A stretch of 64,000 nt of DNA from the human T2T-CHM13v2.0 reference genome, Homo sapiens. Every line of letters starts with the position of its first letter. Position 1 is the first letter of the stretch. The translations under genes were made by a program, and so were the position numbers. Below, in pieces: positions 38,843 through 41,024 of the stretch. The DNA lies in NCBI RefSeq assembly GCF_009914755.1, contig NC_060933.1, one strand, 5' to 3'. The notes below the pieces were generated by a model. It worked only from the letters and a program-made list of their open reading frames with translations, ran no database searches and was not told the origin of the DNA.

Positions 38843-41024
<2,182 letters not shown>

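What the first reader, a model, noticed from the sequence alone, without database searches (positions are those of the whole stretch)
40821..40834. RNF2 retrocopy preserves a 14-nt cryptic 3' splice-site isoform (fossil mis-spliced mRNA)
Seen: the minus strand reads ...ACA CCT CAG [TGACTCTCTTACAG] AAG GCA ATA ACA GAT. This is a 14-nt insert exactly between RNF2 codons Q29 and E30. It is pyrimidine-rich, ends in YAG and begins with an in-frame TGA. It is not a duplication of its flanks and looks like the terminal 14 nt of an intron. Inference: the retrotransposed mRNA used a cryptic AG 14 nt upstream of the normal acceptor, giving a stop-containing, NMD-type transcript that was still captured in the germline. 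Established: cryptic AGs about 10-30 nt upstream of the normal acceptor are the hallmark of SF3B1 hotspot-mutant splicing. My unverified recollection is that RNF2 is one such target. If so, this isoform existed naturally in an ancestral germline, and the pseudogene could also confound mapping of cryptic-junction reads.
Basis: partly seen in the sequence, partly recalled or inferred. Interest (0 to 1): 0.85.

Follow-up and report, generated by a model that had tools for sequence, protein, structure and literature searches.

The report
RNF2 retrocopy preserves a cryptic-splice isoform
A dead, reverse-transcribed copy of the RNF2 gene on chromosome 9 still carries the last 14 bases of an RNF2 intron, which shows that the messenger RNA it was copied from had been spliced at a weak upstream site; this is a neat but conceptually familiar kind of molecular fossil.

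Summary
On the minus strand, window 40834-40821 is a 14-nt insert exactly between RNF2 exon 2 (ends Q29) and exon 3 (starts E30) in the processed pseudogene RNF2P1. In the parent gene on chr1, the last 14 nt of intron 2 match the insert at 13 of 14 bases and are directly preceded by an AG. An older RNF2 retrocopy on chr8 has the canonical junction. The source mRNA therefore used a cryptic acceptor 14 nt upstream, which puts a TGA in frame at codon 30.

RNF2P1 is a full-length L1-type retrocopy, window 41022-38847. It has a 14-nt target-site duplication, an A tail and a later Alu insertion. About 2.9% of sites changed on its own lineage, which I read as roughly 20-35 My.

One paper names RNF2 as an RT-PCR-validated SF3B1-K700E cryptic 3' splice-site target, but its main text does not give the site. 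This AG is the only one 10-24 nt upstream of any of the six RNF2 acceptors.

Unexplained: the copy also lacks exactly the last 14 nt of exon 4. Retrocopies as archives of isoforms are known. Interest is moderate to low.

The parts
41023..41036 (-). 5' copy of the 14-nt target-site duplication (AAAATGCTCTTTGC). It is preceded by TT, which gives a TT/AAAA-type L1 endonuclease site.
   Evidence: An exact-string search finds the two copies at 41036-41023 and 38846-38833. The flank was read. The L1 endonuclease consensus is recalled, not tested.
40924..41022 (-). RNF2 exon 1 (5' UTR) of the retrocopy. It starts 8 nt upstream of the RefSeq gene start of RNF2.
   Evidence: Aligns to chr1:184402436-184402535 at 80.6% identity in a CpG-rich stretch.
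40835..40923 (-). RNF2 exon 2 (start codon to Q29).
   Evidence: 87 of 89 bases identical to chr1:184444462-184444550.
40821..40834 (-). The finding itself: the last 14 nt of RNF2 intron 2, retained because a cryptic AG 14 nt upstream of the normal acceptor was used. It begins with an in-frame TGA.
   Evidence: 13 of 14 bases identical to chr1:184448476-184448489, which is preceded by AG and followed by exon 3. The BLAST match to parent genomic DNA runs through it without a break.
40660..40820 (-). RNF2 exon 3.
   Evidence: 154 of 161 bases identical, no indels. The E3/E4 junction is canonical.
40458..40659 (-). RNF2 exon 4 without its last 14 nt (CAGGCCATGAACAG in the parent). The gap is flush with the E4/E5 junction.
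   Evidence: 202 bases aligned at 96.0% identity, with one 14-nt deletion at the 3' end.
40186..40457 (-). RNF2 exon 5.
   Evidence: 272 bases aligned at 94.9% identity, with one 1-nt deletion. The E5/E6 junction is canonical.
40014..40185 (-). RNF2 exon 6.
   Evidence: 168 of 172 bases identical. The E6/E7 junction is canonical.
39846..40013 (-). RNF2 exon 7, first part (end of the CDS and start of the 3' UTR).
   Evidence: 158 of 168 bases identical to chr1:184457111-184457278.
39535..39845 (-). Later Alu insertion with an A-rich tail (39845-39552) plus the second copy of its 17-nt target-site duplication (39551-39535; the first copy is at 39862-39846). It has the same orientation as the retrocopy.
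   Evidence: Parent positions 184457262-184457278 are matched twice, on either side of the Alu. The sequence was read. The region 39534-39870 is masked as repeat in the annotation table.
38853..39534 (-). Rest of the RNF2 3' UTR, up to a proximal polyadenylation site. ATTAAA lies at 38886-38881, 28 nt before the end of the match. This is about 1.5 kb short of the annotated gene end.
   Evidence: 678 bases aligned at 95.3% identity to chr1:184457279-184457968.
38833..38851 (-). A run of 9 (38851-38843), which is the remnant poly(A) tail, overlapping the 3' copy of the target-site duplication (38846-38833).

Best explanation
RNF2P1 is an L1-mediated processed pseudogene made from one full-length, polyadenylated RNF2 mRNA molecule in the germline (or early embryo) of a primate ancestor, roughly 20-35 million years ago. 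In that molecule intron 2 had been removed using an AG 14 nt upstream of the normal acceptor, so the last 14 intronic bases stayed in the mRNA. That shifts the frame and puts a TGA right after Q29. The cryptic AG sits behind an A-rich, pyrimidine-poor stretch. It lies only 7-9 nt downstream of the best branch-point-like motif, which is the layout typical of the cryptic sites that SF3B1 hotspot mutants activate. It is very probably the RNF2 cryptic 3' splice site reported in SF3B1-K700E cells. Shown: the insert is the tail of the intron, bounded by an AG, and the copy has all the retrocopy hallmarks. Inferred: low-level use of the site by a normal spliceosome, the germline origin, the age, the identity with the published SF3B1 event, and NMD sensitivity.
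For: The insert matches the last 14 nt of intron 2 at 13 of 14 bases, and an AG sits directly upstream in the parent. The match to parent genomic DNA runs unbroken from that AG into exon 3. Q29/E30 is the exon 2/3 junction. Four of the six junctions in the copy are canonical (E1/E2, E3/E4, E5/E6, E6/E7), so this was a spliced mRNA and not a pre-mRNA. The retrocopy hallmarks are a perfect 14-nt target-site duplication, an A run, no introns, and a 5' end within 8 nt of the annotated TSS. The older chr8 retrocopy LOC101060191 has the canonical E2/E3 junction. Of six RNF2 acceptors, only this one has an AG 10-30 nt upstream (at 14 and 29), and only the one at 14 falls within 10-24 nt. The 30 nt before the cryptic AG hold 15 A and 13 pyrimidines, against 17-26 pyrimidines for the six canonical sites. 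[quoted passage not shown] PMC13134632 reports RNF2 among K700E-preferred cryptic 3'ss events. It places such sites 10-24 nt upstream of the canonical site, with a weak polypyrimidine tract and A enrichment. Using chr8 as outgroup, 26 of 35 parent-retro differences in 897 sites fall on the retro lineage, 8 on the parent lineage and 1 is ambiguous.
Against: No primate orthologue could be examined, so presence of the insert at the time of insertion is inferred from sequence identity rather than observed. The paper's main text does not say which RNF2 intron is affected, and its supplements and figures were not visible. No RNA-seq or transcript annotation for chr1 was available, so present-day use of this AG in normal tissue is unverified. 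It may even be an annotated minor isoform rather than 'mis-splicing'. The cryptic site has A at position -3 and a poor pyrimidine tract, so it should be rare; capture of a rare isoform is a low-probability event that has to be accepted as luck. A second anomaly in the same copy, the 14-nt loss at the end of exon 4, is not explained by this account.
Confidence: 0.9

Rival explanations
1. The -14 acceptor is not noise. It is a conserved, regulated alternative site that produces an unproductive RNF2 isoform (dosage control of this Polycomb ubiquitin ligase by splicing coupled to decay), and the retrocopy simply sampled a normal minor isoform.
For: The AG and 13 of 14 downstream bases are the same today as in the copy made some 20-35 My ago. 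The site is usable enough to be validated by RT-PCR in engineered cells, if it is the published event.
Against: There are no data here on conservation beyond the snapshot, on tissue usage or on regulation. 13 of 14 identity over this time span is what neutral drift also gives: about 95% identity elsewhere in the copy. The weak site context fits noise equally well.
Confidence: 0.12
2. The 14 nt were added by reverse-transcriptase template switching. The L1 enzyme would have copied a partly spliced RNF2 RNA through exon 3 into intron 2, then jumped onto a spliced RNA at the end of exon 2, using the shared AG as microhomology.
For: Both the end of exon 2 and the bases before the 14-mer in the intron end in AG, so a 2-nt microhomology exists. 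The same copy has another unexplained junction-flush 14-nt anomaly that an error-prone copying step could produce.
Against: It needs a template with intron 2 retained but introns 3-6 removed, plus two precise events. The boundary falls exactly where a spliceosome would cut, and a cryptic 3'ss in RNF2 is independently reported. It is far less parsimonious.
Confidence: 0.03
3. The 14 nt entered the pseudogene after insertion, by gene conversion from the parent locus or by an unrelated insertion.
For: None specific.
Against: A chance 13-of-14 match to the exact intron tail has a probability of about 1.6e-7 (arithmetic). Gene conversion needs homology on both sides, but upstream of the 14-mer the parent has intron and the copy has exon 2. 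The boundary coincides with an AG.
Confidence: 0.02

Closest known systems
Processed pseudogenes as archives of transcript isoforms. I recall the content of Shemesh et al. [quoted passage not shown] Carelli et al. 2016 (PMC4772013) cites it for retrocopies being archives of transcript isoforms (passage read).
   Same: An intronless L1-made copy whose exon junctions record the splicing pattern of the source mRNA, here an alternative 3' splice site.
   Different: The recorded isoform is unproductive (immediate stop). It also coincides with a site class known from a cancer-associated spliceosome mutation. I found no paper describing this for RNF2P1: 3 papers hold the name, and I opened one of them, where the name is a row in a table of expression-signature genes; the other two I know only from their titles and abstracts.
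SF3B1 hotspot-mutant cryptic 3' splice sites.
   Same: An AG 14 nt upstream of the canonical acceptor, a weak pyrimidine tract, an A-rich upstream stretch, and a position close behind the likely canonical branch point. RNF2 is named as a K700E-preferred event.
   Different: Here the site was used in an ancestral germline, presumably with wild-type SF3B1, so at background level. Identity of the published RNF2 event with this AG is inferred, not seen.
LOC101060191, the older RNF2 retrocopy on chr8.
   Same: A processed copy of the same parent covering the end of exon 1 to exon 6.
   Different: It is about 79-81% identical to RNF2P1 and carries a foreign stretch inside. Both the E2/E3 and E4/E5 junctions are canonical.

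Membership tests
L1-mediated processed pseudogene (retrocopy) | All introns of the parent are absent and the exons are joined in mRNA order. | tested here: met
   Seven exon blocks are colinear with chr1 RNF2 exons 1-7.
L1-mediated processed pseudogene (retrocopy) | A 3' poly(A) tract at a polyadenylation site. | tested here: met
   An A run of 9 follows the last parent-matching base, 28 nt after an ATTAAA.
L1-mediated processed pseudogene (retrocopy) | Flanking target-site duplication. | tested here: met
   Perfect 14-nt direct repeat at 41036-41023 and 38846-38833.
Alternative (cryptic) 3' splice-site isoform captured in a retrocopy | The extra bases are identical to the 3' end of the upstream intron of the parent. 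| tested here: met
   13 of 14 bases identical to chr1:184448476-184448489.
Alternative (cryptic) 3' splice-site isoform captured in a retrocopy | An AG dinucleotide lies immediately upstream of the retained bases in the parent intron. | tested here: met
   The parent reads ...ttaaAG directly before the 14-mer. AG distances are listed.
Alternative (cryptic) 3' splice-site isoform captured in a retrocopy | The insert was present when the copy was made, that is, it is shared by orthologous copies in other primates. | not testable with these tools
SF3B1-mutant-type cryptic 3' splice site | A cryptic AG about 10-30 nt upstream of the canonical acceptor (10-24 nt in PMC13134632). | tested here: met
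   It lies 14 nt upstream and is the only AG at 10-24 nt among the six RNF2 acceptors.
SF3B1-mutant-type cryptic 3' splice site | A short or weak polypyrimidine tract and adenine enrichment upstream of the cryptic AG. | tested here: met
   15 A and 13 pyrimidines in the 30 nt upstream, against 17-26 pyrimidines at the canonical sites. The feature is as described.
SF3B1-mutant-type cryptic 3' splice site | Increased use of this very junction in SF3B1 hotspot-mutant cells. | tested here: inconclusive
   RNF2 is named as a K700E-preferred, RT-PCR-validated event, but the site is not given in the main text. Supplements are closed and figures are not held.
Nonsense-mediated-decay substrate | A premature stop more than about 50-55 nt upstream of the last exon-exon junction (the rule is recalled). 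| tested here: met
   With parent letters the +14 isoform stops at codon 30, with four junctions downstream. Actual decay was not tested. I recall that start-proximal stops are often NMD-resistant.

The most novel reading that the evidence does not exclude
The +14 at the start of exon 3 and the -14 at the end of exon 4 are not a coincidence. The source RNA would have carried two aberrant junctions at once: a cryptic acceptor, plus a non-canonical junction 14 nt inside exon 4 that restores the frame for exons 5-7. That would point to a doubly mis-processed molecule from a germ cell with relaxed splicing fidelity, or to an unrecognised coupled processing event in RNF2. A milder version is that the -14 acceptor is a conserved unproductive-splicing switch for RNF2 dosage, which SF3B1 mutations hijack.
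Probability: 0.08. Interest if true: 0.55.

Novelty: new member of a known kind. Interest (0 to 1): 0.35.

Why it matters
If the identification with the SF3B1-K700E event holds, the fossil shows two things. The cryptic acceptor that the mutant spliceosome favours in RNF2 already existed tens of millions of years ago, and it was used at least occasionally, presumably by a normal spliceosome, in cells that contribute to the germline. That fits the view that the mutants amplify pre-existing splicing noise rather than create new sites.

There is also a practical point. RNF2P1 contains the cryptic junction as contiguous genomic DNA, with only 3 mismatches per 100 nt. Junction-level pipelines that quantify the RNF2 cryptic event, or gene-level counts of RNF2P1 such as the one seen in the expression-signature table, should therefore check multi-mapping.

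RefSeq annotates 611 nt of a copy that spans about 2.2 kb. None of this changes how the field thinks, so the finding is best treated as a well-supported curiosity.

Tried and rejected
ORF rescue by the +14/-14 pair: rejected. With parent letters the shifted frame through exons 3-4 contains many stops, and the insert itself starts with an in-frame TGA.

Alternative 5' splice site as the cause of the -14: rejected as a canonical event. The placement of the gap is unique, and the implied intron would start with CA. A GC donor 11 nt upstream of the normal one would need an extra 3-nt deletion. Slippage between the two ACAG repeats would remove 11 nt, not the observed 14.

chr18 hit (L008): only a 160-nt exon-4 fragment at 72.5% identity that does not reach either junction, so it is uninformative.

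Exon 1: missed by the genome search and by standard blastn. It was found only with relaxed scoring.

Literature. RNF2 + SF3B1 searches returned 7, 11, 1 and 5 papers. I opened five of them with a term search for RNF2. PMC13134632 concerns RNF2 splicing. Three others mention RNF2 only as an SF3B1-interacting Polycomb protein or in a reference list. In the fifth the match was RNF220, a different gene. The rest were judged from the listings only. 'RNF2P1' gave 3 papers, of which one was opened. 'processed pseudogene + SF3B1 + cryptic 3' gave 1 review, not opened. Shemesh et al. 2006 is not held, so its content is recalled. The supplements of PMC13134632, which should hold the RNF2 junction coordinates and primers, are closed and were not requested.

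Not done. I did not classify the Alu subfamily. I did not identify the repeat in the 5' flank: it resembles a MaLR LTR end from recall, but the annotation table does not mask it. Primate orthologues, RNA-seq junction counts and chr1 transcript annotation were not available. The mutation rates used for dating (about 1.1-1.3e-9 per site per year; human-macaque divergence about 6.5%) are recalled, not computed.

Full report
**What is there.** On the minus strand the window reads the end of RNF2 exon 2 (...cctcag), then TGACTCTCTTACAG at 40834-40821, then the start of exon 3. A search of the window's own genome with 801 nt of the pseudogene found the parent exons on chr1, an older copy on chr8 and a fragment on chr18. 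The match to the parent's exon 3 did not begin at the exon. It began 16 nt upstream in the intron, which was the first sign that the insert is intronic sequence.

**The parent gene.** Intron 2 of RNF2 ends ...ttttaattttaaAG, then TGACTCTTTTACAG, and exon 3 follows with GAGGCAATAACA. Exon 2 ends ...CACCTCAG followed by gtaatg. The insert therefore equals the last 14 intronic bases at 13 of 14 positions, and an AG lies directly in front of them. Concatenating the parent exons gives the 336-aa RNF2 ORF with Q29/E30 at the exon 2/3 boundary, in phase 0. With the 14 extra bases the frame runs into TGA at codon 30. The third, primate orthologues, is out of reach here.

**Anatomy of the whole copy.**
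- RefSeq annotates 40404-41014. The retrocopy actually runs from 41022 to about 38847.
- Exon 1 starts 8 nt upstream of the annotated RNF2 start and is 80.6% identical to the parent, in a CpG-rich stretch.
- Exons 2-7 are 94-98% identical to the parent.
- The 3' UTR stops at a proximal site 28 nt after an ATTAAA, about 1.5 kb before the annotated gene end.
- An A run of 9 and a perfect 14-nt target-site duplication (41036-41023 and 38846-38833) close the element.
- A later Alu with its own 17-nt duplication sits in the 3' UTR (39845-39552).
- Four of six junctions are canonical.

This is a textbook L1-made copy of a fully processed mRNA.

**Age.**
- Overall there are 97 mismatches in 1854 aligned sites; excluding exon 1, 78 in 1756 (4.4%).
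- With the chr8 copy as outgroup over 897 sites, 26 differences fall on the RNF2P1 lineage, 8 on the parent lineage and 1 is ambiguous.
- That is about 2.9% on the copy's own branch.
- With recalled primate neutral rates this gives roughly 20-35 My, near the ape / Old World monkey split.
- The single difference inside the 14-mer cannot be polarised, because chr8 lacks the insert.

**How it most likely arose.** The spliceosome used the AG at -16/-15 instead of the normal one.
- The site is weak. It has A at -3, and the 30 nt upstream hold 13 pyrimidines and 15 A, against 17-26 pyrimidines at the six canonical acceptors.
- Within the 80 nt upstream of exon 3 there are three yUnAy matches, with their A 4, 23 and 66 nt from the canonical junction. 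The one at 23 nt is the plausible branch point and lies only 9 nt from the cryptic junction.
- In the usual model (recalled) such an AG is too close to the normal branch point to be used. It becomes available when a branch point further upstream, here an A-rich stretch, is chosen. That step is inference.

**Link to SF3B1.**
- PMC13134632 (sections 6 and 7 read) states that cryptic sites in its SF3B1-mutant cells lie 10-24 nt upstream of the canonical site.
- It describes them as having a shortened pyrimidine tract and A enrichment.
- It reports that RNF2 is one of three K700E-preferred events confirmed by RT-PCR.
- The text does not name the intron.
- Among the six RNF2 acceptors only intron 2 has any AG 10-30 nt upstream (at 14 and 29), and only the one at 14 lies in the 10-24 window.
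- I put the probability that the published event is this site at about 0.75.
- No other paper opened, out of the four RNF2 + SF3B1 searches, concerned RNF2 splicing (papers opened).

**Rivals.**
- A later insertion that happens to match the intron tail is excluded by arithmetic.
- Gene conversion lacks upstream homology.
- Reverse-transcriptase template switching at the shared AG is possible in principle but contrived.
- The idea that -14 was once the normal site is excluded by the frame and by the canonical junction in the older chr8 copy.
- Whether the isoform is noise or a regulated unproductive isoform cannot be decided here.

**An unexplained second anomaly.**
- The copy lacks exactly the last 14 nt of exon 4, flush with the E4/E5 junction.
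- It is the only indel longer than 3 nt among 16 indels. It has no microhomology, and it would need a CA donor if it were a splicing event.
- It cancels the frame shift of the insert, but no ORF is rescued.
- For one large deletion, the chance of an end falling on one of six junctions is about 12/1854, or 0.6%. The equal size makes the coincidence more striking.
- I favour a chance post-insertion deletion because no mechanism fits, but I flag it.

**Comparison with what is known, and verdict.** Retrocopies are an accepted archive of transcript isoforms (Shemesh et al. 2006 is recalled and was seen only in reference lists). This is a new, clean example of that kind, with a pleasing tie to a cancer-relevant class of splice site. 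The name RNF2P1 occurs in three held papers; the one I opened lists it in a table of expression-signature genes. The mapping concern is real but modest, at 3 mismatches per 50-100 nt around the junction and 6 per 150 nt. Novelty: new member of a known kind. Interest: 0.35.

Noticed in passing
window 40458/40457 (minus strand), between exon 4 and exon 5 of RNF2P1: The copy lacks exactly the last 14 nt of RNF2 exon 4, flush with the exon junction. The loss is the same size as the insert, so the net frame shift is zero. It is the only indel longer than 3 nt among 16. No canonical donor, microhomology or ORF rescue explains it.
   Followed up: partly
window 38833-41036: RefSeq's RNF2P1 (40404-41014, 611 nt) covers only part of the element. 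The retrocopy spans about 2.2 kb from a near-TSS 5' end to an A tail, bounded by a perfect 14-nt target-site duplication.
   Followed up: yes
window 39535-39862: An Alu with an A-rich, (AAAT)n-like tail inserted into the 3' UTR part of the retrocopy after it formed. It has the same orientation and is flanked by a 17-nt duplication of RNF2 3' UTR sequence. Many CpGs are intact, so it looks fairly young. The subfamily was not determined.
   Followed up: partly
window 38853-38886; parent chr1:184457968: The source mRNA ended at a proximal polyadenylation site (ATTAAA 28 nt upstream), about 1.5 kb before the annotated end of RNF2. The copy therefore also records a short-3'-UTR isoform.
   Followed up: partly
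window 40846-40848 (minus strand), codon 26 of the RNF2 frame: CGA (R26) has become TGA in the pseudogene, so today's first stop lies upstream of the insert. The two changes nearest the insert are this C to T (12 nt before it) and a G to A at the first base of exon 3.
   Followed up: yes
G000 chr8:53351453-53352539 (LOC101060191; loci L004, L005, L011): An older RNF2 processed pseudogene, about 79-81% identical to RNF2P1, with canonical E2/E3 and E4/E5 junctions. It is interrupted by an unrelated stretch of about 170 nt inside the exon 4 region. It served as outgroup.
   Followed up: partly
window 41040-41200 (minus strand): The 5' flank of the retrocopy resembles the 3' end of a MaLR-type LTR, judged from recalled motifs. 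A weak similarity to a stretch inside RNF2 intron 2 turned up. The stretch is not among the masked repeats of 100 nt or more in the annotation table.
   Followed up: no
window 35943-36087: The annotation table lists a 145-bp MPRA enhancer fragment with an HNF4 motif (36009-36022), about 2.8 kb from the 3' end of the retrocopy, in the region upstream of GLDC. It is unrelated to the finding.
   Followed up: no
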